DNA from: Candidatus Kaiserbacteria bacterium CG10_big_fil_rev_8_21_14_0_10_45_20
GTDB taxonomy: Bacteria > Patescibacteriota > Minisyncoccia > Phycocordibacterales > Phycocordibacteraceae
DNA: 64,000 nt
Assembly: GCA_002773335.1 (NCBI GenBank)
Contig: PFBH01000014.1
Span: forward strand, 8,023-72,022
Direction of reading: 5' to 3'
In this document: one piece after another, positions 10,705 to 56,410 of the stretch
How positions within the stretch are numbered: the stretch's first letter is position 1
How the letters are laid out: every line of letters starts with the position of its first letter
Notes under the pieces: model-generated
The model's database searches: none
What the model was told of the DNA's origin: nothing
What the model saw: only the letters and a program-made list of their open reading frames with translations
Made by a program: the position numbers and the translations under genes

Positions 10705-12360
10705 ATGCACAATCTCCACCCCGTAGCGAAAAGTATTTTAGAGGCACGCAGTATTGAAGACGTAGAGGGCTTCATTAACCTCGAGTATGACAAGCGCCCA
10801 GATCCGTTTCTGCTTACCGATATGGATGTTGCTGTGTCGCGCATACTGCAGGCAATACACAGTAATGAAAAAATTTGTGCGTGGACAGACTACGACTGTG
10901 ATGGCATTCCCGCCGGAGCGCTCCTCTCGGATTTTTTTGAAATGATTCATTACCCCCTCCGTTCGTACATACCTGAACGGAGCGAAGGGTACGCACTCAA
11001 CGAGCAAGGTATACAGAAATTAAAAGACGAAGGCGTTTCACTCATTATCACTGCCGACGCCGGCATTACCAGTAATAAAGAAGTGGCGTTTGCGCAGTCA
11101 TTAGGAATTGACGTCATTGTGACTGATCACCACCTCCCGAGCGAGACGCTCCCGCCGGCAGTCGCGATCATTAACCCGCATCGTGCAGACGACACGTACC
11201 CATTCAAAGACCTCTGTGGAACAGGGGTTGCCTTTAAGCTCGTTGAAGCACTCCTCTCAAAAGGAAGCTTTGACGTTGTTGCCGGAAACGAGAAGTGGTT
11301 GCTCGATTTGGTTGCACTCGCAACGGTTGCCGATATGGTCTCTCTGACAGGCGAAAATAGAACACTCGTTTCTTACGGGTTGCTCGTTGCAAGAAAAGGA
11401 AGAAGAAAGGGAATGCGGGTACTGTTAGAAAAAATGCGCGTTCCATACCGTACTATCACTGAAGATGATTTTGCTTTTTCCATTGCTCCTAAAATAAACG
11501 CGTCATCAAGAATGGAGAGTCCGCTCTTGGGTCTTGAACTGTTAACCACGACGAGCACTGAACGCGCAAATGAGTTGGCAAAACATTTAGTTAATTTAAA
11601 TAATGCTCGAAAGCTTGAGGGTGCGAGAGTTTCAAAAGAAGTAAAGAAAAGGTTAGACGGGTCTCAGTTATCACGGGTCATTGTTATGGGTCGGTCTTCT
11701 TGGAACCCCGCGCTCCTTGGTATTGCAGCGACGGGTATTGTTGAGATGTACGAGCGACCTGTGTGCCTGTGGGGTAAGGACGGAAGTTTAATAAAGGGGT
11801 CGTGTCGTTCCGATGGAACGGTAAACATTGTTTCGTTAATGAAAGAGGCAGAAGATTTGTTTGAAGATTTTGGTGGGCACGAGCTGTCCGGTGGATTTTC
11901 TTTAAAAGAAGGGGCGATACACCAACTGCCGGAGGCACTGGAGAAAGCGTACGCGTCGGTAACATCAGGAGAAAAAAAAGATGAACCAATGCAGATTGAC
12001 GGAACGTTAACGCTCTCTGAAGTGGGAAAGTCTTTGTACACATCTCTGCGACATCTCGCTCCCTTTGGTGTGGAAAACCCAAAACCTATCTTTCAATTTT
12101 CTAACGTACGAGTAGAGAGGGTGCTCTATTTTGGAAAACATAAAGAACATACGCGCGTTACCATTAGTGACGATACCGGCAGGGCAATTGACGCAATTGT
12201 GTTTTTTAGCGACAGGTCGTCTTTTAAAAACGAGCTCGCGTTGCTGTCAAAAGGGGACAGGGTAAGCGTCTGTGCGTGCGTGGAAGAGTCTTCGTTTGGC
12301 AACAAAACCGAGCTCCGTTTGCGAATTGAAAATATAGAAATTAAAACTACGGTACAATAA
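10705..12360 (+). CDS. recJ: Single-stranded DNA exonuclease RecJ
   Basis: DYDCDG, ITADAG, TDHH (DHH motif), ATVADMV, GSCRS, FGGH, PFGVENPKP. Confidence 0.95.
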   Translation: MHNLHPVAKSILEARSIEDVEGFINLEYDKRPDPFLLTDMDVAVSRILQAIHSNEKICAWTDYDCDGIPAGALLSDFFEMIHYPLRSYIPERSEGYALNEQGIQKLKDEGVSLIITADAGITSNKEVAFAQSLGIDVIVTDHHLPSETLPPAVAIINPHRADDTYPFKDLCGTGVAFKLVEALLSKGSFDVVAGNEKWLLDLVALATVADMVSLTGENRTLVSYGLLVARKGRRKGMRVLLEKMRVPYRTITEDDFAFSIAPKINASSRMESPLLGLELLTTTSTERANELAKHLVNLNNARKLEGARVSKEVKKRLDGSQLSRVIVMGRSSWNPALLGIAATGIVEMYERPVCLWGKDGSLIKGSCRSDGTVNIVSLMKEAEDLFEDFGGHELSGGFSLKEGAIHQLPEALEKAYASVTSGEKKDEPMQIDGTLTLSEVGKSLYTSLRHLAPFGVENPKPIFQFSNVRVERVLYFGKHKEHTRVTISDDTGRAIDAIVFFSDRSSFKNELALLSKGDRVSVCACVEESSFGNKTELRLRIENIEIKTTVQ

Positions 12361-28286: not shown

Positions 28287-28317
28287 AAAAAAGACCCTCT
28301 CTTTAGGGTCTTTTTTA
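28287..28317. terminator. Bidirectional terminator between rplB and the transposase-like gene
   Basis: AAAAAAGACCCT-CTCTTT-AGGGTCTTTTTT. Confidence 0.8.
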
Positions 28318-29001
28318 ATATGGGTACTGTTCTGTGTCAGAAAGCTCTTCCTCTAATATTTTTGCTGTTGATGTATTTACAAAGTCTTTGTAGTTGCTAT
28401 TTGGAGTTGTTTCAAATTGTTCGGCGATAATATCTGACTCAAGAAGTCCTCCCCACCGGTTTGCTTCGGTAAGGTCTTGAAGAGAAGACCAAGGATATGA
28501 AAACTCTTTATTTTTCCAAGCAGACAGTTCACGGGGGTTTCTATGAATATATGCTGAAAGGTAGAGTAACTGTTTATTATCTTTTACGTGCACCGATTTA
28601 AAACGGCCTTGAAACACATGACCAGAAAGATGGTGACGTGTATTCATATACATCGTGTGAGCAACGAGGATTCGTTGCATATAGGCACTGATTCCTCCCG
28701 GGATCTTTTCGCGAACAAGGAGGTGGAAGTGGTTAGGCATAAGACAAAAAGAGGTAAGCTCAACAAAACGTGACTGCAAAACCTCAGAAAGCTTTTTTTC
28801 TGAAACGGGAAACCCAGTGAGCGCGTTGTAATTTTTTATATACCGCGTGACATTTTCAAACTGAATTGGTGACTGGAAGTAGAGGATGGAGAATAAAAAA
28901 CGCCGGCGATCAATATCATCTTTAAAAATATTTCCTCTACGCGAACCTCTATTGAAAATGTGGTAGTACTCGCCTTCAGCAATATTGCGTTTCTGAGTCA
29001 T
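28315..29001 (-). CDS. REP-associated tyrosine transposase-like protein (RAYT, Y1/HUH family)
   Basis: YYHIFNRG, IFKDD, FCLMPNHFHLL (HUH), GHVFQGRFKS, YIHRNP, YPWSS; start placed at ATG 29001. Confidence 0.9.
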   Translation of the reverse strand: MTQKRNIAEGEYYHIFNRGSRRGNIFKDDIDRRRFLFSILYFQSPIQFENVTRYIKNYNALTGFPVSEKKLSEVLQSRFVELTSFCLMPNHFHLLVREKIPGGISAYMQRILVAHTMYMNTRHHLSGHVFQGRFKSVHVKDNKQLLYLSAYIHRNPRELSAWKNKEFSYPWSSLQDLTEANRWGGLLESDIIAEQFETTPNSNYKDFVNTSTAKILEEELSDTEQYPY

Positions 29002-29016
29002 ATCTTTTTTGAGTGT

Positions 29017-29056
29017 AACACAAATGTTGGAGACCCGGGTCTCCAACATTTGTGTT
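29017..29056. repeat. Perfect 40-bp palindrome (REP-like) directly upstream of the RAYT
   Basis: AACACAAATGTTGGAGACCC|GGGTCTCCAACATTTGTGTT. Confidence 0.9.
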
Positions 29057-29083
29057 GACAGTGTTCATTCACTTGTGTATTCT
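29055..29083 (+). promoter_or_regulatory. Sigma70-like promoter restarting the S10 operon at rpsS
   Basis: TTGACA-17-TATTCT. Confidence 0.7.
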
Positions 29084-45885: not shown

Positions 45886-46452
45886 TTATACCATATCTGT
45901 AGGTTTTATGCCAGTTTTCTTCTCTTTTGGCGCCTTCTTTTTTCCTTCGCGCTCAAGAACGAGGTAAAAGCCTTTTGGACCCTTCTTTATATCTTCGGCA
46001 ATTTTGTATTCTTCAGGAACAAGGAGCACAAAGCGCATAAGCCGTTCTTTGAGGAAATTTTGGTCCATATACTTATATCGACCCTTCAAAAAGAGCTCTA
46101 CCTTTACTCGGTGCCCCTCACGAAGCCACTCTGCCGATTGACGAGCCTTACGGGTAAGGTCATGTTCGCCGGTCACTACCTCTACCTGTACCGCCTTTGT
46201 CTCTGTGTGGTGCGCTTTTGCTTTTACATCACGCTCTTTCTTTTTTTCTTGGTATTGAAATTTTCCATAGTCCATAATTTTGGCTATAGGAGGCTTCGCT
46301 TTAGGAGATATTTCTATAAGGTCGAGAGACGACTCTTTGGCACGACGAAGCGCCTCTTCAAGAGAGACAATGCCAATATTGTCTCCGGTGGGACCAATAA
46401 CACGAAGTTCTTGGGCTCGGATTTGTTCGTTTATTCTGGTTCTCTGTTTCAA
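45886..46452 (-). CDS. infC: Translation initiation factor IF-3 (TTG start)
   Basis: RINEQIRA, LDLIEISP, PPIAKIMDYGKFQY, GEHDL. Confidence 0.96.
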   Translation of the reverse strand: MKQRTRINEQIRAQELRVIGPTGDNIGIVSLEEALRRAKESSLDLIEISPKAKPPIAKIMDYGKFQYQEKKKERDVKAKAHHTETKAVQVEVVTGEHDLTRKARQSAEWLREGHRVKVELFLKGRYKYMDQNFLKERLMRFVLLVPEEYKIAEDIKKGPKGFYLVLEREGKKKAPKEKKTGIKPTDMV

Positions 46453-46466
46453 AGCGTTGTAGCGGT

Positions 46467-46495
46467 ATTCTAACGCGTGATTGACTCTTTTACAA
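46467..46495 (-). promoter_or_regulatory. Candidate infC promoter
   Basis: Minus strand TTGTAA-17-TAGAAT. Confidence 0.5.
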
Positions 46496-46869
46496 CCACC
46501 TCCACAATCACAAATACCCCTTGCGGGGTATTTGTGATTGTGGAGGTGGAAGGTGGCGTCAGCTCACTCAGTATTTTGTTTCGCTCGATAGTTCGCTCAC
46601 AAAATACTGAGTGGCTCCTGCCCGGGCTCGTCCGTCGCAGGGCGGCATGACTCCGCCTTTCATTCCCCCACGAAAGCCAAGCAGTTGGCTTTCTCCACTG
46701 CGTTTGAAATCTGTTAAGCGCTCGCGACCCCGGCTCGGCTTTTCTCTTTCGCAGGAAAATACAACGAAAGAGAAATATACCTCCGCCCGGTTCATTCCCC
46801 ACGCACAGTGCGCAGGCACTGTGCTCCCACCACCCAATAAAAATACCCCTTGCGGGGTATTTGTGATTG
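46496..46869 (-). repeat. Modular structured trailer downstream of tmRNA containing direct and inverted copies of the tmRNA 3' end
   Basis: AAATACCCCTTGCGGGGTATTTGTGATTGTGGAGGTGG at 46512-46549 and 46841-46878; inverted T-arm copies at 46659-46698 and 46789-46834. Confidence 0.85.
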
Positions 46870-47257
46870 TGGAGGTGGGGGGGAATGAACCCCCGTCCGA
46901 AAAGGGTCTTTGGGACGACTCTACAAAGCGTAGTTCTTTTTTTCACCGTGAAGTGAATTTAAGTATTAGTGTATAAAACGAACAAAAGAAGCTAATACCG
47001 AGCTCTCAATTTTCGAGAAGTTGTACGAGCAAAAAACTTCCTTATTCCGACTATATTACACCGGGTATCTCACTGTCAGAAAGAGTGAGATTCGATGCTG
47101 CTTAGGCTAAAGCGTAAGCAGGAGCACCTACGAACTGAGCGTAAGGGCTCTTAACAAGTGATTTTACACTTTGGGTTACTCGAGATTTTAGGTGTTCTCG
47201 AGCATTCACCGCTTTGCACGAAACAAAGGTGACCTTCCGTCAAAACTAGTCACCCCC
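46870..47257 (-). ncRNA. ssrA: tmRNA
   Basis: 5' GGGGGTGACTAGTTTTGAC, 3' GACGGGGGTTCATTCCCCCCCACCTCCA (G3-U pair), internal tag frame ending ...GAPAYALA*; adjacent to smpB. Confidence 0.95.
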
Positions 47258-47354
47258 CCACAGTATGTCCGCGTACGAACCTGTTCGTACAAGAGCTGGT
47301 ATGAAATATTCATAACAACTCTTGGCGGATATACTGTGGCCGAGCGACTAGTGC

Positions 47355-47798
47355 TTATTCTCCTTTCAATGTTCTGTCTATGTGGCGTTTCGTATCTTTT
47401 GCTTTCAATAGCGCACGTTTATCATACCTCTTTTTGTGTCGCGCTACAGCAAATTCCAACTTTACCTTCCTGTTACCATTATACCACTTTATCGGGATAA
47501 TTGTCAACCCTCTCTTCCCGTCTTGTTCTGCAAGTTCAAGAATCTCTTTTTTTGAAAGAAGCAGTCGGCGTGCCCGTTCAGGGTCGTATGATGCAGGCGT
47601 GTTCTTTTCTTGATATGGAGATATCGAAGCTCCAACCAGAAACACTTCACCTCCTCGCACTAATACACGAGCTCCAAGCAAAGAAGCTTTTCCTGCACGA
47701 ATGGCTTTTACTTCATACCCAAAAAGCTCTGCTCCTGCAGAGTACGTTTCAAGAAATTCATAGTCAAAATGCGCCTTTTTGTTTTCTACAAATGCCAT
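47355..47798 (-). CDS. smpB: SsrA-binding protein SmpB
   Basis: NKKAHFDY, AGAELFGYEVKAIR, RRLLL, GLTIIP, YDKR. Confidence 0.96.
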   Translation of the reverse strand: MAFVENKKAHFDYEFLETYSAGAELFGYEVKAIRAGKASLLGARVLVRGGEVFLVGASISPYQEKNTPASYDPERARRLLLSKKEILELAEQDGKRGLTIIPIKWYNGNRKVKLEFAVARHKKRYDKRALLKAKDTKRHIDRTLKGE

Positions 47799-47894
47799 AC
47801 CAAACAGTGTACAACGTCATACCTGTTTACGCATTTGCCACACGCCACTGCAGTAGTTTTGGAGTTGCGCTAAATGACAGGTATACTACGAAGA

Positions 47895-49853
47895 ATGAAT
47901 AACGCATCGTCTGGGAAAGGCTCTAAAAAACCTACATCACCAAAAAAAACACCGCCTGGTTTTGGAAAACGAGGTCCTCGTATTAAACGTCCACAAAATA
48001 AATATGGAGGAAACTTTACACTTTCGTTAATCGCAGCGCTCATTGTGTTAACGATCTACTCGTTTATGACTAGTCAGTCGGGCGATGTTGAGGATATCTC
48101 ACTCTCTACACTCGCGTCAGATATTAAGTCTGAGCTGGTAGAAGAAATTACCGTGCAAGGAGATACACTGACCATCGTGTATACAGACGAGACAAAAAAG
48201 AAGGCAAAAAAAGAACCAGACAGCTCGCTTTCAACAACGCTCGTAAACTATGGACTCACCCCAGACGAGTTTGCGTCAGTCTCTATACTTGTTGAAAACG
48301 AAGGAGGGTTTCGTTTTTGGTTCTTCTCACTCGCTCCAATTCTCGTTCCGCTACTCTTGATTGTTGTGTTTATTTGGTACCTCTCGCGACAGGTAAAGGG
48401 GGCGGGAGTGCAAGCCTTCACGTTTGGGCAGTCAAAAGCGCGTCTCATTGATCCGAAAGATAAGGTGCAACGAGTAACGTTTGCTGATGTTGCTGGCGCA
48501 AAAGAGGCGAAAGAAGAGCTAACAGAGATTGTAGATTTTCTAAAGAACCCAAAAAAATTCTTAGATATTGGAGCCACCATTCCAAAGGGTGTGTTAATGA
48601 TGGGTGCGCCGGGTACCGGAAAGACTCTCTTAGGGCGAGCTGTTGCCGGAGAGGCGGGAGTGCCTTTCTTCTCTATATCGGGTTCAGAGTTTGTAGAAAT
48701 GTTTGTAGGAGTTGGGGCAAGCCGTGTTCGCGACCTCTTTAAAATGGCGAAAGCATCGGCACCTGCAATTATATTTGTTGACGAAATTGACGCGGTGGGG
48801 CGCGTACGTGGAACCGGCGTTGGCGGTGGAAACGATGAACGCGAGCAGACACTGAACCAAATCTTGGTTGAGATGGACGGGTTTGAGCCAACAGAAAAGG
48901 TGATTGTGATGGCTGCGACAAACAGACCAGACGTACTTGACCCTGCGCTGTTGCGACCGGGGCGTTTTGACAGAAGGGTCACCATTGACCTGCCTGACCG
49001 TGATGGTAGAGAAGAGATACTCAAGATCCACGCCCGCAAAAAGCCACTCGCCGAAGACGTAAACCTGCGCGTCATTGCCGAGAGAACTCCAGGATTTTCT
49101 GGGGCTGACTTGCAGTCACTAATGAACGAAGGGGCTATCCTTGCCGCGCGAGAAGACCGCAAAAAGGTGTCGCAGTTTGACTTGGTGCGTTCAATTGAAA
49201 AGGTTATGCTCGGGCCTGAACGTAAAACACACTTGCTGAACAAGAAAGAAAAAGAAGTGACGGCATACCACGAAGCAGGTCATGCGCTCATTGCCTCGGT
49301 GTTGCCGTACGCTGATCCGGTTCACAAGATATCTATTATTTCTCGCGGTCGGGCAGCGGGGTACACACTAAAACTTCCTCTCGAAGATAAGAAGATGCAA
49401 TCTAAAAAAGAGTTCTTGGACGACATTGCTGTTTCTCTTGGCGGATACGTGGCAGAGAGAATGGTATTTGGTGATCTCACCACCGGCCCTTCAAATGACC
49501 TGCAAGTACTTACGTCACTGGCGCGCGATATGGTAACAAAGTATGGTATGTCGGATAAAATGGGACCGGTTGCGCTTGAAGGAGAGGGAGGCAAGGCGCT
49601 GTTTGGAAGGGGAGTAAATGAAAAAGAGTACTCAGAGCGCGTGTCGGCAGAAATTGACGCTGAGGTAAAACAGATTGTTGACGAAGCCTACGCAAAAGCA
49701 ACCACCATTCTGACCGACCACCGAAAGGCACTTGATGCCATCTCTGCAAAACTTATGGAAGTAGAAACGCTTGAGCGCGATGAATTTGAGAAGCTTTTGG
49801 TGGTTCACGGTATTGAGCCAAAGAAAAAACAAGACATAGAGCACCAAACGTAG
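47895..49853 (+). CDS. ftsH: ATP-dependent zinc metalloprotease FtsH
   Basis: Two TM segments, [42 protein letters not shown]. Confidence 0.97.
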
Positions 49854-49886
49854 AGGGAAAGCGCTGAGTCGTTAGAGATCTATAAT

Positions 49887-49922
49887 AAAAAACACCTTCC
49901 GTTGTGCTCGGAAGGTGTTTTT
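49887..49922 (+). terminator. Intrinsic terminator after ftsH
   Basis: AAAAACACCTTCCG-TTGTGCT-CGGAAGGTGTTTTT. Confidence 0.8.
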
Positions 49923-50041
49923 GGTGAAACATTCTTGCAAAAACTCACTGCTTTTGTTGGGTTGTATATCCACATGGTGTGTGGATAGTATTTGTACGTT
50001 TAAACTATAATATAAAAGAGATAGTTTAAATGTTCGGTATT

Positions 50042-50734
50042 ATGTCAAAGTTTTCAAAACGAGACCTAGCGATTCGGATGCGAGAAAAAGGAATGAGTTA
50101 TTCTCAAATAAAAGAGCATTTGCAAGTCAGTAAAAGCACCCTTAGTTTATGGCTTCGTCATATGCCCCTCTCGGAACAGAGAATACGAGAACTGCGAGAT
50201 CACTCTGAGCAACGAATAGAGAAAACAAGGGAAACAAAACGAAAGAAAAAGTTACAGCGTATACGCAGTGTTTACTCTGAGGCTGTAAAAGATATTGGTA
50301 AAGTTTCAAAAAGAGAACTGTATATAGCGGGGTTTTTTCTCTATTGGGGGGAGGGGGTAAAAGCTGATCCGTATACAACGATGTTTACGAATACTGACCC
50401 TGCTATGGTGAAGTGTTTCATTCAGTGGATCGCTCTTTTAGGAGTAAAAAAATCTGACTTGAAAGTATATCTACACGTTTATAGTGATATGGACATTCCC
50501 CAAATAATTACATTCTGGTCTAATGAATTAAATATCCCTCAATCGTCGTTTCGGAAACCATACGTTAAAAAAAGTGTTGCTGGTAAACAAAAAAATTATA
50601 AGGGTCGTTTTGGTTTTGGTACCTGTAATATATATGTGCGTAATAGAGACATACGTGAAAAAATAATTATGTCTATTGCCAGGATACGAGAAGTCTATGG
50701 GGGTATTGCTTTTGACCCTGAAAAAGAGATATAG
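50042..50734 (+). CDS. tRNA-adjacent protein with N-terminal HTH and LAGLIDADG-like C-terminal domain
   Basis: KGMSYSQIKEHLQVSKSTLSLWLR (HTH); IAGFFLYWGEG followed by FTNTDP; ends 7 nt before a tRNA. Confidence 0.7.
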   Translation: MSKFSKRDLAIRMREKGMSYSQIKEHLQVSKSTLSLWLRHMPLSEQRIRELRDHSEQRIEKTRETKRKKKLQRIRSVYSEAVKDIGKVSKRELYIAGFFLYWGEGVKADPYTTMFTNTDPAMVKCFIQWIALLGVKKSDLKVYLHVYSDMDIPQIITFWSNELNIPQSSFRKPYVKKSVAGKQKNYKGRFGFGTCNIYVRNRDIREKIIMSIARIREVYGGIAFDPEKEI

Positions 50735-50741
50735 TTTAAAT

Positions 50742-50816
50742 CCGCCCTTAGCTCAATTGGTTAGAGCATCTAGCTTATACCTAGAAGGTTTCCTGGTTCG
50801 AGTCCAGGAGGGCGGA
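50742..50816 (+). tRNA. tRNA-Ile(UAU)
   Basis: Cloverleaf: CCGCCCT/AGGGCGG acceptor, GCTC/GAGC D stem, TCTAG-CT TAT AC-CTAGA anticodon arm, CCTGG-TTCGAGT-CCAGG T arm; CCA not encoded. Confidence 0.93.
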
Positions 50817-51220
50817 CATGATAGAGAAAAGCAAACTGCTTTGCTTTTCTCGATACATGTCCGAGCCGGAGCCATGTTTTTCCAGCAGGAAAAACAGGCG
50901 AGGCGGGGTCGCGGAATTTTGCGAGTGACTGACGAGCAAAATATCCGTGACGACCAGACAGAAATATCCCGCCTGCGCGGGATTTTCTGCGTCAGTCCGA
51001 GGCACAGGGTTGTGTGAGTTTGAGCGAAGCGAAAGGCGAACACCCCGAGCCGGGGTCACCACAAGAGTACTTCTATTTCTCTAATTCGATGACTCATAAG
51101 AGAAATTGGTCGCGCGAAAAATTTCCGTTAGGAAATTTATTTGTGACGACCAGATACAAATATCCCGCCTGCGCACTGTTTTTGTTTACATGTCCGAGCC
51201 GTACCACACGGGCACTTCAC
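50817..51220 (+). repeat. Modular structured trailer downstream of tRNA-Ile
   Basis: Blocks shared with the tRNA-Ser and tmRNA trailers; internal direct repeats GTGACGACCAGA..AAATATCCCGCCTGCGC (50947, 51143) and TACATGTCCGAGCCG (50854, 51187). Confidence 0.85.
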
Positions 51221-51282
51221 AAACGTGTGCAAAAAATCATTGTAGTGGCAATAACACATAACATCCTATATCATAGCTGTAT

Positions 51283-51675
51283 ATGGCAAAGGTAATACAA
51301 TTTCCCGGTAGCCCAGAGAAGCGAAGACGAATGGCTCAGGAAAGAAAATTAAGGGAAGATAGGGATTATTTTGATAAAAACAGAGCAAAGGTGCGCGTTG
51401 CCCTTGATCGACAAAAGGCATTTTCTCAACAAGTTTTTACAGAAGATATGCAAGGTAAAAAGAAAACACTCTTTGCTCACGAAAAAGACGCCTTTTCTCA
51501 AATGTCACTTGAAGACTTAATTCACGAAGCGTGGAATATTGACGAGACGGTATGGAGCGGTACACCAGCGCGAGCAAAGGCTTTCCTTTCTGCTCTGGGT
51601 GCTCGAATTGTTCGATGTGGTGGCTTTAGTGATGTTATTTCTGACCCTTCAGAGTATCCAGATGATATTGGATAA
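51283..51675 (+). CDS. Hypothetical protein (130 aa)
   Basis: ORF filling the gap between the tRNA trailer and recG; no recognised motif. Confidence 0.6.
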   Translation: MAKVIQFPGSPEKRRRMAQERKLREDRDYFDKNRAKVRVALDRQKAFSQQVFTEDMQGKKKTLFAHEKDAFSQMSLEDLIHEAWNIDETVWSGTPARAKAFLSALGARIVRCGGFSDVISDPSEYPDDIG

Positions 51676-51682
51676 GCTGACA

Positions 51683-53812
51683 CTATTCAAAGTGGAGGCT
51701 CCGAGCTTTCTTTTGAGACATCTCGCCAAGCGCGGGATGTTTTTTTAATATCGGATCTTTGGCAACCAATGCAAACGCTTCAGTGCGTGCCGCTTCAACC
51801 AGCTTAAGGTTTTTGAGTGCCTCCATTCCAATATCGGAGAGGCCGGATTGGTGCCTTCCGTATAATTCTCCAGCCCCCCTGATAGATAAATCTTTTTCGG
51901 CAAGCTCAAACCCATTCTTTGCTGTTTGTATTGCTTTTAATCGGGACGATTCGCTTTTGGCAGACGATTCAACCATTAAAAAACAGTATGGCTGGTGACT
52001 TGAGCGCATTACGCGCCCACGAAGTTGGTGGAGTTGTGCCAACCCAAACCTGTCAGCTCCCTCTATCATAATCACGGTAGCGTTTGGAACGTTTACACCA
52101 ACCTCAACGACAGAGGTTGCTACTAAAATATCTATCTCTCCGTTAGCGAACGAGTTCATCACGTCTTCTTTTTCTTTCGGAGTCATTTTGCTGTGCAATT
52201 TTTCAATACGCCACTCTGGAAACACGCTCTCTTTGAGGCGTTTTGTCTCTGACGCAACACTCCTCGTTTGAAGAGCCATATACTTTGTTGGATCAGGCTC
52301 ATCAATGCGCGGGCAAATAACGTATGCTTGATGACCCTCTTTCAGAAGTTCTAACACTTTTTTATACGCGGTGTCTCTTTTTGGAGGTGTAATGATATCG
52401 GTAACAATGGCCTTTCTTCCAAGAGGCATCTGCTCAAGTACCGTTAAATCAAGGTCTCCGTAGAGTGTGAGCGCAAGCGTGCGGGGTATTGGTGTTGCGG
52501 TCATTGAAAGGAGGTGGGGCGACGCACCGTCTTTTTTTGCAATTTCTTTTCTTTGCGCGGTACCAAATCGATGCTGTTCGTCGATAATAACGTAGGCGAG
52601 GTGTTTAAAATTAACTGTCTTCTGTATAAGAGAGTGCGTTCCAATAAGAATTGGAATTTCTCCATTTGCCACCCACTTTAGTAGTTGAGTGCGAGAAATA
52701 GGCGTCGCGTCTTTTTTATTTACCTTTGATGGAAACTTGTAACAACCGCTTGATGTTATAAGCCCGATATTGATAGGGTGATCGATAAAAAAATCGGTAA
52801 ATGTTTTAAAGTGTTGCTTTGCCAAAATCTCAGTCGGTACCATATAGGCAACCTGAAGGTTGCCAAAATCCTGCCCGTGGGGGCGCGAAGTCACTACACT
52901 GTAGGCGGTTGCAGCAGCGACAGCCGTCTTTCCGCTTCCTACGTCTCCTTCAAGGAGGCGGTGCATAGGGTAACTATTTTCAAAATCTTTCAAAATGTCA
53001 CTGATAGAGTCCACCTGCCCTTTTGTGGGGGTAAACGGAAACGAGTCAATAAACGTCTGAAGCTTTTTTTTGTCTGTGTCTATAACGTACGACTTCTCGT
53101 TTTTATTTCGCTCTCGTTCTTTTGCACGGTCAACTTGAATAAGAAACACCTCTTCAAATGCAAACCGTTTTCGCGCTGTTTCTGCGTCTTTTTCTTTTTT
53201 GGGTTGGTGCGCAAAGACAAACGAGTCTCTGAGTGATGGCAGGTTATATTTTTTTAAAATGGTAGGAGGTATAACGTCTTCAATAAAATCAAGCACATCA
53301 CTGCGCAGTACTTTTTGGATGGTGTGGTACAGCCACAGAGACGAGACGCCGGCTGACTCTGGGTACACCGGAAAGAGCCCTTCGTATCCCTCAAGAATGG
53401 GAATGCATGTTGCTTTCTCAACAACGGGGTTGGCGACATACTTCTTTCCGTTTCGTTCGGTTACTTTTCCACGAATACGAACGAGCTCTCCTTCTTGAAT
53501 CATTTTTGCCAGATACGGTTGATGAAACCACACAACACGGAGGGTATGAGATCCGTCAGAAAACGAACCTTCTGCCATCGGTACTTTTGTGCGGAATGAT
53601 TTTTTTATTTCTAATTTAGAAAACTGACCATATATAACCACTGTTTCATTTGGCTCTGCGGTTGCAATGCGCCTAATATCGGCAGAAGACTCGTACCGAG
53701 AGGGGATGTGGTACAAAAGGTCCAGCACCGTTTCTATACCAAGCTTTGTGAGGGCAACAGCTTGCTGTTTCTGTATCCTAAAATGAGAAGAGAGCGTATC
53801 GTGTGGCTTCAT
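51683..53812 (-). CDS. recG: ATP-dependent DNA helicase RecG
   Basis: RLLEGDVGSGKT, PTEILAKQH, IIDEQHRFG, MTATPIPRTL, QLHQLRGRV; start placed at ATG 53812. Confidence 0.96.
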   Translation of the reverse strand: MKPHDTLSSHFRIQKQQAVALTKLGIETVLDLLYHIPSRYESSADIRRIATAEPNETVVIYGQFSKLEIKKSFRTKVPMAEGSFSDGSHTLRVVWFHQPYLAKMIQEGELVRIRGKVTERNGKKYVANPVVEKATCIPILEGYEGLFPVYPESAGVSSLWLYHTIQKVLRSDVLDFIEDVIPPTILKKYNLPSLRDSFVFAHQPKKEKDAETARKRFAFEEVFLIQVDRAKERERNKNEKSYVIDTDKKKLQTFIDSFPFTPTKGQVDSISDILKDFENSYPMHRLLEGDVGSGKTAVAAATAYSVVTSRPHGQDFGNLQVAYMVPTEILAKQHFKTFTDFFIDHPINIGLITSSGCYKFPSKVNKKDATPISRTQLLKWVANGEIPILIGTHSLIQKTVNFKHLAYVIIDEQHRFGTAQRKEIAKKDGASPHLLSMTATPIPRTLALTLYGDLDLTVLEQMPLGRKAIVTDIITPPKRDTAYKKVLELLKEGHQAYVICPRIDEPDPTKYMALQTRSVASETKRLKESVFPEWRIEKLHSKMTPKEKEDVMNSFANGEIDILVATSVVEVGVNVPNATVIMIEGADRFGLAQLHQLRGRVMRSSHQPYCFLMVESSAKSESSRLKAIQTAKNGFELAEKDLSIRGAGELYGRHQSGLSDIGMEALKNLKLVEAARTEAFALVAKDPILKKHPALGEMSQKKARSLHFE

Positions 53813-53844
53813 GCTAAATTGTTTCAAGTATACCTCTCTTATAT

Positions 53845-55005
53845 ATGACACGAAAGAAAAAGTATATCGGCGCCCACTCCCTCTCTGAGCACAAGAAATT
53901 AAAAGGGAAGATCGAGGTTGTAGGAAAAGTGCACCTTAAAACACTTGAAGACTGGTCAACTTTTTACACGCCGGGGGTAGGGGCCGTTTCAACGCACCTT
54001 GGCAAAACTCCGGAAGATGCTCGTGTCTACACCATTAAACGAAACACGGTGGCAGTTGTCTCGGACGGCTCTGCTGTACTCGGCTTAGGAAACATCGGCC
54101 CTTATGGAGCACTGCCGGTGATGGAAGGTAAAGCACTTATCTTTAAAGATAGGGCGAACATTGATGCGTTTCCGATTGTGCTTGATACGCAAGACCCCGA
54201 CGAGATTATTGAGACGGTAGTGCGTATTGCCCCTGCCTTTGGAGGCATCAACCTTGAGGATATTGCCGCTCCACAGTGTTTTTATATTGAAGAAGAGTTA
54301 AAGAAACGACTACCAATACCGGTAATGCATGACGACCAACACGGCACCGCGATTGTCGTTTTAGCAGGGTTAATAAACGCACTAACGGTGGTAAAGAAAA
54401 AGTTGTCAGCAGTCTCTATTACTGTCGTTGGAGCAGGGGCCGCCGGTTTTGCCATCGCTCAATTATTAAAAAAAGCGGGAGCGTCTGACATTCGCGTCAC
54501 TGATCGAGTGGGGGTTATTGGAAAACATCGCGCAGGTCTTGCACCCCACAAAACCGTTTTGGCAAACCTCCCTACAAAACGTCCAAGAGCGGTAACACTA
54601 CTAGACGCGACGACTGACTCTGACGTCTTAATTGCGGTATCGGGCCCCGGTACGGTAACTGCTGAGCACATTATCGCGATGAATAGTAATGCCATTGTGT
54701 TTGCGCTCGCAAACCCGACTCCGGAAATTATGCCAAACATTGCAACGCAGGCGGGGGCAACAGTGGTCGCAACGGGGCGGTCCGATTTTCCGAACCAGAT
54801 AAACAACGCACTCGTCTTCCCGGGTATTTTTAGAGGGGCGCTTGATAGCGGTGTTTCCGATATTACTGAGGATATGAAACTAAAGGCCGCGTACGCGCTG
54901 GCACGGTTAGTGAAGGCTCCTCACAAAGATAATATTGTGCCGTCTGTCCTTGACGGTAAGGTGGCAAAGGCGGTGGCACGAGCGGTGAGCGGTTTTAAAA
55001 AATAA
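53845..55005 (+). CDS. NAD(P)-dependent malic enzyme
   Basis: YTPGV, VVSDGSAVLGLGNIG, PVMEGKA, INLEDI, HDDQHGTA, GAGAAG, ANPTPEI, NQINN. Confidence 0.94.
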   Translation: MTRKKKYIGAHSLSEHKKLKGKIEVVGKVHLKTLEDWSTFYTPGVGAVSTHLGKTPEDARVYTIKRNTVAVVSDGSAVLGLGNIGPYGALPVMEGKALIFKDRANIDAFPIVLDTQDPDEIIETVVRIAPAFGGINLEDIAAPQCFYIEEELKKRLPIPVMHDDQHGTAIVVLAGLINALTVVKKKLSAVSITVVGAGAAGFAIAQLLKKAGASDIRVTDRVGVIGKHRAGLAPHKTVLANLPTKRPRAVTLLDATTDSDVLIAVSGPGTVTAEHIIAMNSNAIVFALANPTPEIMPNIATQAGATVVATGRSDFPNQINNALVFPGIFRGALDSGVSDITEDMKLKAAYALARLVKAPHKDNIVPSVLDGKVAKAVARAVSGFKK

Positions 55006-55006
55006 T

Positions 55007-55663
55007 ATGTCGGCAGAGTCATTTAAGAGAGCAAGAGATCGTTGGCAAATTGAAAGAGAGGCTAAGATTTTTCTTTCAAAAAAAGGTATTGCAAAGTGGA
55101 AAGAGAGGTTAGAGCAAGAAGGGCTCCGTAAATTTCATGACGCGATTATTGATACTCGGTGGGTACGGGTTCCTGATATACGCGGTCGATTTGTGAGCGC
55201 TCGCCTCCGTACCGCGACAGAGAAAAAAGACCCGAAGCAGTTTTTATGGGCAATTAAGGTTCGTACATCAGCGCACTCTGAGGCAAAGCACATTAAAGAG
55301 TGTTACGAACTCGAAGGAAGTGGAGATTCAATGAAATCAGTACGAAAAGAACTCAAGAAACACTTAAGGGCGGTGCTCGGCAAAGAAACTCCAGACAAGT
55401 TGATAGAAGATAGGCGTCTTATAAAACGACGAGTGTCGTACGAAACGCAAGATCTTAACCACTCACTTTTTGGCGTACGGTTTGATATAGATACACTTGA
55501 GACTGTGAACGGTAAAAAAATAGACCCTCCCATCCACATTCTCGAACTAGAGGGGCTTTCGGAAACGTTGATACTCTCAGCGACTAAACACTTGGGGATA
55601 GATCCGCAAAAACTTTCTTCTATATCAGGCAAGGTATTGCTGAAAGAGACGGGGTATTTGTAG
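55007..55663 (+). CDS. Hypothetical protein, possible CYTH/triphosphate-tunnel family
   Basis: N-terminal IEREAK (ExExK), RLR, YELE, KRRVSY, FDID, LELEG pattern. Confidence 0.6.
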   Translation: MSAESFKRARDRWQIEREAKIFLSKKGIAKWKERLEQEGLRKFHDAIIDTRWVRVPDIRGRFVSARLRTATEKKDPKQFLWAIKVRTSAHSEAKHIKECYELEGSGDSMKSVRKELKKHLRAVLGKETPDKLIEDRRLIKRRVSYETQDLNHSLFGVRFDIDTLETVNGKKIDPPIHILELEGLSETLILSATKHLGIDPQKLSSISGKVLLKETGYL

Positions 55664-56232
55664 AGAGTGCGGGATGTGTCTTCGCTACGCTCGCACGCAT
55701 CGGTCACAGATATTTTGTTCGCCGTCGCTCACAAAATTCCGCGCGACCAATTTCTCTTACGAGTCTGCGAGTTAGAGAAATGGAAGTACTCTTGTGGTGA
55801 CCCTGTCTCGCGACCCATTCTGCTGAATGGGTACCCTGCTCCGGCTTTCGCGACTTTGTTTTGTTACGAACGAAGTGAGTTAGAAAACAAGAAGTGCCCG
55901 TGTGGTACGACTTTGTTTTGTTACGAACGAAGTGAGTTAGAAAACAAGAAGTGCCCGTGTGGTGAATCCCGACGTAAAGCACGCAGGTGCTTTACTCACT
56001 CTCCGCAGTATACTCACTGCGCTCGAATCTGCGGAGAGTGCGGGATGTGTCTTCGCTACGCTCGCACGCATCGGTCAGGAATAATTTGCTCGTCAGTCAC
56101 TCGCAAATTTTCACGACCCTGGCTCGTCTGTTTTTTCTGCTGAAAAAACATGACTGCGCCTTTCGAATCCCGACGTAAAGCACGCAGGTGCTTTACTCAC
56201 TCTCCGCAGTATACTCACTGCGCTCGAATCTG
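55663..56232 (-). repeat. Modular structured trailer downstream of tRNA-Ser with duplicated tRNA 3' ends
   Basis: 83-bp direct repeat 55964-56046/56165-56247; 44-bp repeat 55663-55706/56034-56077; 56-bp tandem 55851-55906/55908-55963. Confidence 0.9.
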
Positions 56233-56319
56233 CGGAGAGTGCGGGATTCGAACCCGCGAGGGCGGTTAAGCCCTACCTCGTTAGCAGTGAGGCGCTTTCG
56301 ACCACTCAGCCAACTCTCC
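56233..56319 (-). tRNA. tRNA-Ser(GCU)
   Basis: GGAGAGT/ACTCTCC acceptor, CCTCA-CT GCT AA-CGAGG anticodon arm, long variable arm AGGGC-TTAACC-GCCCT, GCGGG-TTCGAAT-CCCGC, discriminator G. Confidence 0.95.
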
Positions 56320-56410
56320 GTGTTATACACAATGAAGCGATGACTTCTATCTATCTTTCGACAGATGTTCCCGTCATATTGGGACAGGCAGCCAACTCTC
56401 CGTAAGGTGA

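What the first reader, a model, noticed from the sequence alone, without database searches (positions are those of the whole stretch)
56162..56247. Antisense copy of the tRNA's own T-arm/acceptor end, interrupted by a 25-nt CUGC-loop hairpin with fully covarying stems
Seen: just downstream of tRNA-Ser and of tmRNA is an inverted copy of that RNA's 3' end, split by an insert of constant design (plus strand AC-9 bp stem-GCAG-stem-T; CUGC loop on the transcript). Ser: TTCGAATCCCG|AC GTAAAGCAC GCAG GTGCTTTAC T|CACTCTCCGCAG (56162-56209, again at 55964). tmRNA unit 1: GGTTCATTCCCC|AC GCACAGTGC GCAG GCACTGTGC T|CCCACC (46789-46831). tmRNA unit 2: TTCATTCCCCC|AC GAAAGCCAA GCAG TTGGCTTTC T|CCAC (46659-46698). 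Removing the insert restores the host sequence, including the 7-C run of tmRNA. The three stems differ in sequence but keep length, loop and flanks. CUGC-loop hairpins also occur in the Ile trailer (50824-50851, 50966-50983). Inference: the precursor could fold into an alternative three-way junction that sequesters the T arm and acceptor stem (a maturation switch or protein-binding site), or this is an ssDNA hairpin recognised by the enzyme that builds these loci.
Basis: partly seen in the sequence, partly recalled or inferred. Interest (0 to 1): 0.85.

Follow-up and report, generated by a model that had tools for sequence, protein, structure and literature searches.

The report
Target-copying structured module behind tRNA genes
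The mirror-image copy of the tRNA's end, split by a small hairpin, is real and forms the front arm of a protein-less, tightly folded ~93-base module that sits behind tRNA, tmRNA and a few other busy genes across one order of tiny uncultured bacteria; it likely marks an undescribed small mobile element that carries a copy and an inverted copy of whatever gene end it sits in.

Summary
Observation confirmed. All three split antisense copies are in the sequence as described, and removing the 25-nt insert restores the host sequence.

The copy is not a stand-alone motif. It is the 5' arm of a conserved ~93-nt structured core, modelled here as R1. The core matches no Rfam family.
- It gave about 20 hits in this 0.6-Mb genome.
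- It was found in 73 of 101 related genomes.
- Its fold is strongly supported: 97.4% of cells paired, 29 of 30 pairs compensatory, and 193 G.U-type against 19 A.C-type mismatches.

The arm tracks the neighbouring tRNA. An exact antisense block of at least 10 nt occurs in 41 of 69 loci, against 33 of 1358 mismatched pairings. A direct repeat of the tRNA 3' part, running from T-loop C56 to the gene end, follows the core and often decays.

The 9-bp hairpin (A-stem-CUGC-stem-GU) is an optional branch. It lies at the acceptor/T-stem boundary in about 15 of 69 loci, and the stem sequences are unrelated between loci.

Best reading (inferred, 0.4): a protein-less insertion module whose direct and inverted target copies fold into a target-mimicking stem. 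The main rival is an RNA-level role in the pre-tRNA. No enzyme was identified and no RNA data were available.

The scan had already noted this family twice, on other DNA of this genome and on the tmRNA stretch of this window.

The parts
56233..56319 (-). tRNA-Ser(GCU), the host gene. Its 3' part from the T loop onward is called X1 in this report.
   Evidence: ARAGORN; Rfam tRNA, 58 bits
56210..56232 (-). Trailer and 20-nt loop between the tRNA end and its antisense copy. It has no U-tract terminator.
   Evidence: Sequence; fold
56198..56209 (-). Arm part a: antisense of the acceptor 3' strand, the discriminator and 3 trailer bases.
56173..56197 (-). 25-nt branch hairpin A-GUAAAGCAC-CUGC-GUGCUUUAC-GU (sense strand), inserted one base inside the acceptor/T-stem boundary.
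56162..56172 (-). Arm part b: antisense of the T-stem 3' strand and the whole T loop, ending exactly opposite T54.
56071..56164 (-). Conserved structured core, copy U1: stem A with a tandem G.A internal loop, GG linker, long stem B with a conserved G.U.
   Evidence: Model R1, 104.9 bits; alignment and fold
56047..56070 (-). Optional tail module between the core and the direct repeat. It is shared with the copies at tRNA-Gly(UCC) and at contig C22.
55964..56046 (-). Second copy of the block (tRNA 3' part from the T loop, loop, arm a, hairpin, arm b), identical to 56164-56246. The arm is cut in its anti-T-loop by two 57-nt mini-elements.
55700..55850 (-). Second core copy U2. It carries a nested ~54-nt insertion and is followed by the tail module and a truncated third copy of the tRNA 3' part (to about 55662).
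46867..47257 (-). tmRNA (ssrA), the second host.
   Evidence: Rfam RF00023, 94.3 bits
46789..46831 (-). tmRNA unit 1: antisense of the tmRNA T arm and acceptor end, split by a 9-bp CUGC hairpin.
46659..46698 (-). tmRNA unit 2: the same design with an unrelated stem.
46562..46791 (-). Two decayed or divergent core copies behind the tmRNA arms.
   Evidence: R1 hits with E 0.096 and 0.18: weak
46495..46550 (-). Direct repeat of the tmRNA 3' end plus its terminator.
50742..50817 (+). tRNA-Ile(UAU), host of a '3'-end class' copy.
50824..50851 (+). 12-bp CUGC-loop hairpin directly behind tRNA-Ile. It is followed by ATGTCCG, the antisense of the tRNA's last 5 nt plus 2 trailer nt.
50861..50954 (+). 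Core copy behind tRNA-Ile.
   Evidence: R1, 101.2 bits
50966..50983 (+). 7-bp CUGC hairpin heading the next, divergent unit of the Ile trailer.

Best explanation
The split antisense copy is the target-complementary arm of a conserved, protein-less, ~93-nt structured module. The module sits in or just behind the 3' end of tRNA, tmRNA and a few other highly expressed genes. It is likely a small mobile insertion element, and its direct copy plus inverted copy of the target end would fold, as a single strand, into a stem that mimics the target site.

Shown:
- The layout is [host 3' part X1] - [spacer hairpin, often with a CUGC loop] - [inverted copy X'] - [core U] - [second direct copy X2].
- X' tracks the neighbouring gene.
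- U has a strand-specific, strongly covarying fold.
- X2 runs from T-loop C56 to the tRNA end and decays, while X' stays matched.
- Copy number and occupied tRNAs differ between genomes.
- There are two junction classes, one in the T loop and one at the 3' end.

Inferred:
- The unit [X1-hairpin-X'-U] would be what was inserted, at T-loop position 55/56. It brings a replacement tRNA 3' end and displaces the original (X2).
- The X1:X' stem would be its attachment structure, as in elements that integrate as folded single strands.
- The 9-bp hairpin would be an accessory branch at the acceptor/T-stem boundary of that stem.

The enzyme, the physical form of the intermediate (ssDNA or RNA) and the way new targets are acquired are unknown.
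For: Architecture and tracking:
- 12 or more tRNAs plus the tmRNA in this genome carry the layout.
- In 69 of 93 full-length cores from 60 or more genomes, a same-strand tRNA or tmRNA lies within 450 nt upstream.
- The longest exact antisense block is at least 10 nt in 41 of 69 loci, against 33 of 1358 mismatched pairings.

Direct repeat:
- X2 is at least 15/18 identical to the tRNA in 19 of 38 T-loop-class loci.
- Over positions 56-65 the arm has a mean of 0.66 mismatches and X2 has 2.84. The arm is better in 25 loci, equal in 6 and worse in 7.
- The last bases of the core covary with T-loop positions 56-58: GACCGA against GACCAA.

Mobility-type behaviour:
- 73 of 101 relatives have the core, with 1-32 hits each.
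- tRNA-Ser(GCU) is occupied here but followed by a plain terminator in G004.
- Cores at different tRNAs of one genome are more alike (0.73, n=42) than cores at the same tRNA type in different genomes (0.68, n=152; background 0.67).
- Tandem and nested copies occur.

Strand-specific fold: 97.4% of cells paired, 29 of 30 pairs with compensatory change, 0 of 500 shuffles reaching this. G.U-type mismatches number 193 against 19 A.C-type.

The same front end (arm, CUGC branch, direct repeat) is used by at least two unrelated cores.

The complementarity runs across the discriminator into the genomic trailer, so the copy comes from the gene or the primary transcript, not from mature tRNA.
Against: - No enzyme was found. 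This genome has no RVT_1 and no IS110 DEDD domain, and only one Xer-like tyrosine recombinase.
- RAYT-like genes are missing from 12 of 73 element-bearing genomes, including G048 (23 hits), G088 (20) and G065 (15). This is my tally.
- The tRNA-linked nuclease-like ORF shows no association: 41 of 73 against 16 of 28.
- The model does not explain how an element acquires the direct and inverted copies of a new target.
- Order-wide structural conservation with a conserved G.U and conserved junction bases is what a functional RNA would show.
- Some copies, such as those behind efp in four genomes, sit at what appears to be the same site, because all four follow recognisably homologous efp C-terminal coding sequence, so they look vertically kept.
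- The two Ser blocks are identical although their cores differ. Simple independent insertions do not predict this.
- No empty or filled site within one population, and no circular junction, was seen.
Confidence: 0.4

Rival explanations
1. RNA-level function. The module is co-transcribed as the tRNA trailer, and the arm pairs with the T arm and acceptor 3' strand of the pre-tRNA or with the downstream repeat. It could act as a maturation or quality switch, as a T-loop 'intron-like' insert with a spare 3' half, as a ribozyme, or as a 3'-end processing or stabilising structure.
For: - The core has RNA-like conservation: compensatory pairs, a G.U kept in 100 of 112 sequences, conserved junction bases, and 193 G.U-type against 19 A.C-type mismatches.
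- It is always on the host's sense strand.
- Many loci have no terminator before the arm and a canonical terminator after X2.
- The arm is kept complementary while X2 decays.
- Predicted folds: the trailer outcompetes the cloverleaf (-72.0 against -37.5 kcal/mol). In the full unit the MFE (-130.6) builds the cloverleaf with X2 and leaves the element as a T-loop insert. The alternative of tRNA plus a closed module sums to -124.7.
- The branch hairpin sits where the tRNA body leaves the acceptor/T helix and is about as long as the stacked D and anticodon stems. That comparison is my own inference.
Against: - Terminator-like hairpins with U tracts stand between the tRNA and the arm in most copies of this genome.
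- Arm:tRNA mismatches show no G.U bias (3, 3 and 11).
- Pairing extends over the discriminator and trailer, which is unlike a processable tRNA mimic.
- Direct repeats, tandem and nested copies and variable occupancy need a DNA-level process anyway.
- No Rfam ribozyme or other family matches.
- No RNA data were available.
Confidence: 0.3
2. REP/REPIN-like extragenic palindromes, moved in trans by the resident RAYT-like Y1 (HUH) transposase as single-stranded DNA.
For: - A RAYT-like ORF with HUH and Y motifs lies at window 28315-29049 (-).
- 61 of 73 element-bearing genomes have a RAYT-like match, against 10 of 28 genomes without the element. This is my tally and is confounded by relatedness.
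- The elements lie at 3' ends of genes, as REPs do.
- Near-identical 57-nt mini-elements nested in these fields show that small hairpin elements have moved recently.
Against: - 12 element-bearing genomes lack any RAYT-like match, including G048 (99% complete, 3 contigs, 23 hits).
- The palindrome flanking the RAYT gene (about 29019-29058) is unrelated to the CUGC hairpins or to the core.
- REPs do not carry copies of their target.
Confidence: 0.12
3. Passive by-product. The antisense arm arises from extension of the terminator palindrome by replication template switching, and the repeats arise from unequal crossing-over. The arm then has no function.
For: - The arm, spacer hairpin and host end form one continuous palindrome that includes trailer bases.
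- Arm length varies from 5 to 27 nt.
- Arm mismatches are not wobble-biased.
Against: - The arm ends at a fixed place: opposite T54, or 5-8 nt into the 3' end, always 5 nt before the core's CGGAG.
- The arm decays more slowly than X2.
- The 9-bp branch is conserved in design across families.
- The trailers after X1 and X2 usually differ, so the copy is not simply templated from local downstream DNA.
Confidence: 0.1
4. Guide RNA of an RNA-guided recombinase or nuclease, of the IS110 bridge RNA type, with the protein encoded elsewhere.
For: A structured non-coding unit of about 100-200 nt has a segment that covaries with the flanking target.
Against: - This 99%-complete genome has no DEDD IS110 domain.
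- Both arm halves are antisense to the same target strand and are contiguous, unlike the split-strand guides of bridge RNAs. That comparison is recalled, not tested here.
- I did not search TnpB or IscB families.
Confidence: 0.05

Closest known systems
Integrative elements and genomic islands that target tRNA/tmRNA genes at the T-loop or 3'-end sublocation, with tyrosine integrases
   Same: - A direct repeat of the tRNA 3' part starts in the T loop or at the 3' end.
- The intact tRNA is restored by element-borne sequence.
- Tandem arrays occur at one tRNA, and tmRNA is also a target.
   Different: - The unit is only about 100-250 nt, has no ORF and no integrase.
- It carries an additional inverted copy of the target and a conserved folded core.
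- It also sits behind protein genes.
CTX-phage-type IMEX elements and integron attC sites (folded single-stranded recombination sites)
   Same: - Two inverted target-like sequences, separated by a spacer, can fold into a stem that imitates the double-stranded target.
- Structure is conserved more than sequence.
- Extra-helical features occur in the stem. This comparison is from recall of that literature.
   Different: - The target is a tRNA end, not dif or attI.
- No link to Xer or IntI was shown.
- The stem sequence changes with every target.
REP/REPIN sequences with RAYT transposases
   Same: - Small, multi-copy, extragenic hairpin elements at gene 3' ends.
- A RAYT-like gene is present in this genome.
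   Different: - There is no shared REP sequence and no link to the RAYT-flanking palindrome.
- 12 of 73 carrier genomes lack the gene.
- The arms are derived from the target.
IS110/IS1111 bridge (seek) RNAs, and the guide-tetranucleotide target pairing of IS200/IS605
   Same: Target choice is written as nucleic-acid complementarity inside the element.
   Different: - No cognate transposase is present in the element or, for IS110, in the genome.
- The arm is much longer.
- The arm is a literal inverted copy that includes trailer bases.
Retroviral/LTR primer-binding site
   Same: A stretch is antisense to the acceptor and T arm of a specific tRNA.
   Different: - It matches the genomic trailer instead of CCA.
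- No reverse transcriptase is present in the genome.

Membership tests
REP/REPIN-RAYT | A RAYT (Y1 HUH) gene is present wherever the repeats persist. | tested here: not met
   12 of 73 element-bearing genomes have no match at E<=1e-5 with the window's RAYT-like protein, including G048 with 23 element hits. This was a single-protein query, not a family profile.
REP/REPIN-RAYT | The repeats share the palindrome that flanks the RAYT gene. | tested here: not met
   The palindrome next to the ORF has no CUGC loop and shows no similarity to the core or the hairpins, judged by eye.
tRNA-targeting integrative elements | A direct repeat of the tRNA 3' segment bounds the insert, with the crossover in the T loop or at the 3' end. 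| tested here: met
   X2 is at least 15/18 identical in 19 of 38 T-loop-class loci. The repeat starts at C56 and ends at the tRNA end.
tRNA-targeting integrative elements | The element encodes its own integrase. | tested here: not met
   Units are about 100-250 nt and non-coding. No distant second repeat bounding a larger island was found within the 0.5-1.5 kb available.
IMEX / folded-ssDNA attachment sites | Inverted target-like sites fold into the recombination substrate. | tested here: inconclusive
   The inverted and direct copies are present and the predicted stem forms. No evidence exists for an ssDNA form.
IMEX / folded-ssDNA attachment sites | Recombination by XerCD at dif. | not testable with these tools
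   One Xer-like gene is present. The target here is a tRNA end, not dif.
IS110 bridge-RNA elements | A DEDD/Tnp recombinase partner. | tested here: not met
   PF01548 is not found in the own genome, which is 99% complete. It was not searched in relatives.
Known RNA families, including self-cleaving ribozymes (Rfam 15) | A match to a curated covariance model. | tested here: not met
   Only tRNA and tmRNA reach the gathering score. Nothing credible over the element appears at E<=10.
Intrinsic terminator (for the 25-nt hairpin) | A GC-rich stem followed by a U tract. | tested here: not met
   The insert is followed by GU and then the antisense T stem. By contrast, many spacer hairpins between the tRNA and the arm do have U tracts.
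tRNA-like minihelix mimic | A 12-bp acceptor/T helix with a free single-stranded discriminator-CCA end. | tested here: not met
   Complementarity continues over the discriminator and 3-6 trailer bases. The T loop is paired rather than looped.

The most novel reading that the evidence does not exclude
A protein-less mobile nucleic acid that writes its own address. On insertion the conserved core becomes flanked by a direct and an inverted copy of the target's 3' end, and that self-made guide directs or stabilises further integration. Alternatively, the core is a new ribozyme that exchanges tRNA 3' halves at T-loop position 55/56. Either would be a new principle of target recognition in bacteria with minimal genomes.
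Probability: 0.15. Interest if true: 0.92.

Novelty: new variant of a known kind. Interest (0 to 1): 0.75.

Why it matters
- If the module is mobile, it is a non-autonomous element whose specificity lies in a literal copy and inverted copy of each target, not in a fixed end sequence. It thrives in 0.6-Mb genomes that have almost no recombination enzymes.
- If it acts as RNA, it is a widespread, undescribed structured RNA class wired to the T arm and acceptor end of many tRNAs.
- Either way it affects how tRNA loci of CPR bacteria are annotated. The loci contain pseudo 3' halves, false tRNA fragments and assembly breaks at these repeats.
- It offers a defined 93-nt fold for experiments.

Tried and rejected
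- RNA evidence: no RNA holder was listed for window 46400-56390, so expression could not be examined.
- Metagenome scan for strain variants of the tRNA-Ser locus: 0 matches.
- IMG/VR scan with a degenerate core motif: 16 loci, none of which matched model R1, so these were chance hits. A single motif is a weak probe.
- Synteny route to empty sites: 30 loci around the neighbouring gene's homologues. Only 3 kept tRNA-Ser(GCU) nearby, and their flanks were too diverged to align.
- Retro-element origin: no RVT_1 domain in the genome, and the arm matches the genomic trailer rather than CCA.
- Decayed 5' half of a duplicated tRNA: rejected, because the T-loop part is the reverse complement and not the sense sequence (for example AATCGAA for TTCGATT, ATTTGCA for TGCAAAT) and the arm continues into the trailer.
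- Closing helix between the arm and the downstream repeat as the selected pairing: weakened, because the repeat decays faster than the arm. In distant lineages, however, all 9 repeats examined are intact or have a single mismatch to the tRNA end.
- Fold-back copying of local downstream DNA at a T-loop nick: rejected as a general model, because the trailers after the two direct copies usually differ.
- Literature: five full-text searches found no description of such elements. I saw only listings and abstract starts.
Full report
**1. The observation**

The window is contig C3:8023-72022 of a 608,577-bp assembly in 22 contigs, 99% complete. Earlier notes of this scan call it a Kaiserbacteria-like CPR bacterium.

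tRNA-Ser(GCU) lies at 56233-56319 (-), tRNA-Ile(UAU) at 50742-50817 (+) and the tmRNA at 46867-47257 (-). ARAGORN misses the tmRNA.

On the tRNA's sense strand the Ser trailer has four parts:
- a 20-nt loop;
- CUGCGGAGAGUG, the antisense of the acceptor 3' strand, the discriminator and 3 trailer bases;
- A-GUAAAGCAC-CUGC-GUGCUUUAC-GU;
- CGGGAUUCGAA, the antisense of the T-stem 3' strand and the whole T loop.

Deleting the 25 nt gives a perfect antisense of the tRNA end. The two tmRNA units do the same and restore the run of seven C.

This is not chance. The genome holds 78 perfect hairpins with a stem of at least 9 bp and a tetraloop, against 1-4 in five block shuffles. GCAG and CTGC are the two commonest loops, with 8 and 6 instances. 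As I read the contexts, all 15 GCAG/CTGC hairpins with a stem of at least 7 bp lie in the fields described below.

**2. What it belongs to**

Printing the 420 nt behind every tRNA shows one layout behind at least 12 tRNAs and the tmRNA. In order, it consists of:
- the host 3' end (X1);
- a spacer hairpin, often terminator-like and often with a CUGC loop;
- an inverted copy of the host end (X');
- a conserved core;
- a second direct copy of the host 3' part (X2).

Eight clear cores align well. RNAalifold gives 30 pairs, 19 of them with compensatory changes. I built covariance model R1 from this alignment.
- R1 finds 20 hits at E<=1 in the own genome.
- It finds hits in 73 of 101 genomes of the same order, G000 included, with 1-32 hits each, in 33 of 43 genera.
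- In an even sample of the phylum, only 5 of 149 genomes outside the own genus have hits, all of them weaker.
- Rfam has nothing for it, either at gathering scores or at E<=10.

**3. The core is a real, strand-specific fold**

On 115 cores aligned to the model (112 distinct rows):
- 97.4% of cells pair;
- 29 of 30 pairs show changes on both sides;
- 730 cells are compensatory, against 181 in shuffles, with 0 of 500 shuffles as high;
- slid controls fall to 32-46% paired.

The alignment was fitted to the model, which favours the structure, but the margin is large.

One G.U is kept in 100 of 112 sequences. In total there are 193 G.U-type against 19 A.C-type non-Watson-Crick cells, or 63 against 18 without the two G.U-rich columns. 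The fold is therefore read on the tRNA-sense strand, as RNA or as sense single-stranded DNA. It is not a double-stranded protein site.

The fold has a short basal helix, a GGA/GA internal loop (tandem G.A), stem A with a C-AGCA-G tip, a GG linker, and a roughly 20-bp stem B. Its conserved unpaired bases are G.CGGAG, GAG, GGGUCG and UGACC.

**4. The arm tracks the neighbour**

I collected 93 full-length cores: the best-scoring hits, fetched, plus the own genome. This set is biased towards high scores.
- 69 of the 93 have a same-strand tRNA or tmRNA within 450 nt upstream.
- Of the other 24, several follow tRNA/tmRNA-like ends that ARAGORN missed, another core, an unidentified RNA-like end, or protein genes. 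Four follow efp at the same position in four genomes.
- The longest exact antisense block between the pre-core stretch and the own tRNA tail is at least 10 nt in 41 of 69 loci (mean 10.0). When tails are swapped between loci it is at least 10 nt in 33 of 1358 pairings (mean 3.4).
- T-loop variants are followed exactly: TGCAAAT gives ATTTGCA, TCCGATT gives AATCGGA, TTCAAGT gives ACTTGAA.

There are two junction classes. In both, the arm stops 5 nt before the core's CGGAG.
- T-loop class, about 34 loci. The arm ends exactly opposite T54.
- 3'-end class, about 15 loci. The arm is the antisense of only the last 5-8 nt plus trailer and directly follows a CUGC hairpin. tRNA-Ile in this window belongs here.

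**5. The direct repeat**

In the T-loop class the core's last bases covary with T-loop positions 56-58 (GACCGA against GACCAA). The repeat runs from C56 to the tRNA's end, including CCA where it is encoded, and stops there.

It decays. Identity is at least 15/18 in 19 of 38 loci. Over positions 56-65 the repeat has a mean of 2.84 mismatches and the arm has 0.66. The arm is better in 25 loci, equal in 6 and worse in 7. Ungapped matching inflates some repeat mismatches where an extra module sits between the core and the repeat.

In nine loci from distant lineages the repeats are intact or have a single mismatch to the tRNA end, and the arms are short, about 6-7 nt.

**6. The 25-nt hairpin itself**

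Split arms occur in about 15 distinct loci of the 69. In the own genome they occur at Ser (twice), tmRNA (twice), Asp, Lys, Gly(UCC) copy 2, Cys and Arg(UCG).

The design is constant:
- one A before the stem;
- a 9-bp stem, in 11 of the 19 rows (8 bp in one and 10 bp in another);
- a tetraloop;
- GU after the stem.

Stem sequences are unrelated between loci, and some contain G.U pairs. The loop is CUGC in about half of the foreign cases and in 7 of 9 own cases. Otherwise it is CUGA, UUGA, GGGU, CUAU, UAGU, AGUA or CGAC.

The insert always sits within one base of the acceptor/T-stem boundary of the antisense strand.

The same arm exists with and without the hairpin in one genome: tRNA-Gly(UCC) copy 1 against copy 2. 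The same split-arm front end is used by a second, unrelated core (the second unit behind tRNA-Lys, and L030 behind tRNA-Tyr). A third core type with arm and repeat follows tRNA-Ser in G017.

The hairpin is therefore an optional but selected branch of the arm, not part of the core.

**7. Mobile or resident?**

Evidence for turnover:
- Copy numbers range from 0 to 32.
- tRNA-Ser(GCU) in G004 has a plain terminator.
- Cores are more alike within a genome across tRNAs (0.73, n=42) than across genomes at the same tRNA type (0.68, n=152; background 0.67, n=2010). tRNA type was defined by amino acid only, and related genomes are not independent samples.
- Tandem arrays and nested insertions occur.

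Evidence for residence and constraint:
- Structure is conserved across the whole order.
- The efp copies sit at the same position in four genomes.
- tRNA-Cys copies in two genomes show compensatory changes in the spacer hairpin.

**8. Partner enzymes**

The own genome has no reverse transcriptase domain, no IS110 DEDD domain, and one tyrosine recombinase whose sequence looks Xer-like. I named it from its motifs and did not scan it against a family library.

The RAYT-like Y1 gene at window 28315-29049 has homologues in 71 of 101 genomes. My tally against one search is 61 genomes with both, 12 with the element only (G041, G048, G060, G064, G065, G066, G071, G079, G081, G084, G088, G092), 10 with the gene only, and 18 with neither. 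That is an association without obligation, and it is confounded by phylogeny.

The tRNA-linked nuclease-like ORF (window 50030-50734) shows none: 41 of 73 against 16 of 28.

**9.

| Construct | MFE (kcal/mol) | Predicted structure |
|---|---|---|
| tRNA-Ser alone | -37.5 | cloverleaf |
| tRNA plus trailer to the end of the arm | -72.0 | T arm and acceptor 3' strand paired to the arm, hairpin as the third branch |
| Full unit through X2 | -130.6 | cloverleaf rebuilt with X2, element left as a structured insert in the T loop |
| tRNA plus self-closed module | -124.7 (sum) | alternative to the row above |

They are thermodynamic predictions only.

In this genome most other copies have a U-tract hairpin before the arm, so the arm may often not be transcribed with the tRNA. 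Internal mismatches of the arm:tRNA helix are not wobble-biased (3 G.U-type, 3 A.C-type, 11 other; small numbers).

**10. Reading**

The evidence that bears on the reading is:
- a direct repeat bounded by the tRNA end;
- an intact tRNA completed by the proximal copy;
- decay of the distal copy;
- tandem accretion;
- two sublocations, the T loop and the 3' end.

Together these are the signature of tRNA-targeting integrative elements, here shrunk to a non-coding unit. The added inverted copy, kept complementary to the proximal copy and separated from it by a spacer hairpin, is what elements that integrate as folded single strands carry (CTX phage attP, integron attC; recalled, not tested).

I therefore favour, at 0.4, a miniature insertion module whose X1:X' stem is its attachment structure, with the 9-bp hairpin as an extra-helical branch.

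Three things remain unexplained:
- how new targets are copied in both orientations;
- who catalyses the insertion;
- why the two Ser blocks are identical while their cores differ.

An RNA-level role (0.3) fits the conservation pattern at least as well. It would be favoured by any evidence of a processed core RNA.

**11. Novelty**

I found no Rfam family and no paper in five full-text searches (I saw only listings and abstract starts). The element also fails defining features of REP/RAYT, integrase-bearing islands, IS110 and known ribozymes.

Two earlier follow-ups of this scan reached the general 'undescribed structured mobile repeat behind tRNA genes' reading, on another piece of this genome and on the tmRNA stretch of this window. 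This report adds:
- the two junction classes;
- the exact T54 and C56 boundaries;
- the position and design rules of the branch hairpin;
- the contrast in decay between the arm and the repeat;
- the strand-specific wobble statistics;
- the negative partner-gene tallies.

Noticed in passing
window 55851-55963 (-), two tandem copies. Also behind tRNA-Trp, Lys, Gly(UCC) and Ile and on contig C12.: A near-identical ~57-nt mini-element (ACCACACGGGCACUUC...AAAGUCG, with an internal hairpin) is inserted into the anti-T-loop of the arm or into the core's 5' CCG|GAG. It often occurs in tandem and looks recently mobile.
   Followed up: partly
window about 55747-55800 (-) and 51056-51110 (+): A related ~54-nt element (ACCACAAGAGUACUUC...AAAUUGGUC) is nested inside stem B of two cores, right after GGGUC. 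It ends in a copy of GGUC, which looks like a target duplication.
   Followed up: no
G000 contig C22 about 10800-10920 (-), locus L012; also L030 (G001, behind tRNA-Tyr): A second, unrelated core type (GGUUGAG...GAAACCC...CCUGUAAGG) uses the same split arm with a CUGC hairpin and the same direct repeat.
   Followed up: partly
L053 (G017), behind tRNA-Ser(GCU): A third core type, with an antisense T-arm arm and a decayed direct repeat.
   Followed up: no
G000 C20:10868-11001; L106, L135, L098: Core copies sit directly behind efp in four genomes, headed by a hairpin (with a CUGC loop in three of them) whose foot pairs with the end of the efp reading frame.
   Followed up: partly
L097, L110, L139 (G100, G006, G010): Cores follow an unidentified RNA-like 3' end (…GGUCGUGGGGUCAGCACCCAUCAGCCGCGC) with a matching antisense arm. 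The host gene was not identified.
   Followed up: no
window 56047-56070 (-), 55676-55699 (-); C3 Gly(UCC); C22:3195-3220: An optional tail module (UGCGUGCGAGCGUAGCGAAGACAC) lies between the core and the direct repeat. Many stem-B tips and this tail contain GCGAAGC-like motifs.
   Followed up: no
window 28315-29049 (-) and 29019-29058: A RAYT-like Y1 HUH gene between rplB and rpsS, with its own 40-nt palindrome that is unrelated to the CUGC hairpins.
   Followed up: partly
window 46867-47257 (-): ARAGORN does not call this tmRNA, although Rfam scores it at 94 bits. It also missed several tmRNA and tRNA ends in relatives.
   Followed up: no
G000 contigs C8, C11, C15, C17 (ends): Several contigs begin or end within a tRNA or in an element field, and N runs interrupt the 57-nt repeats. 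These repeats probably break the assembly.
   Followed up: no
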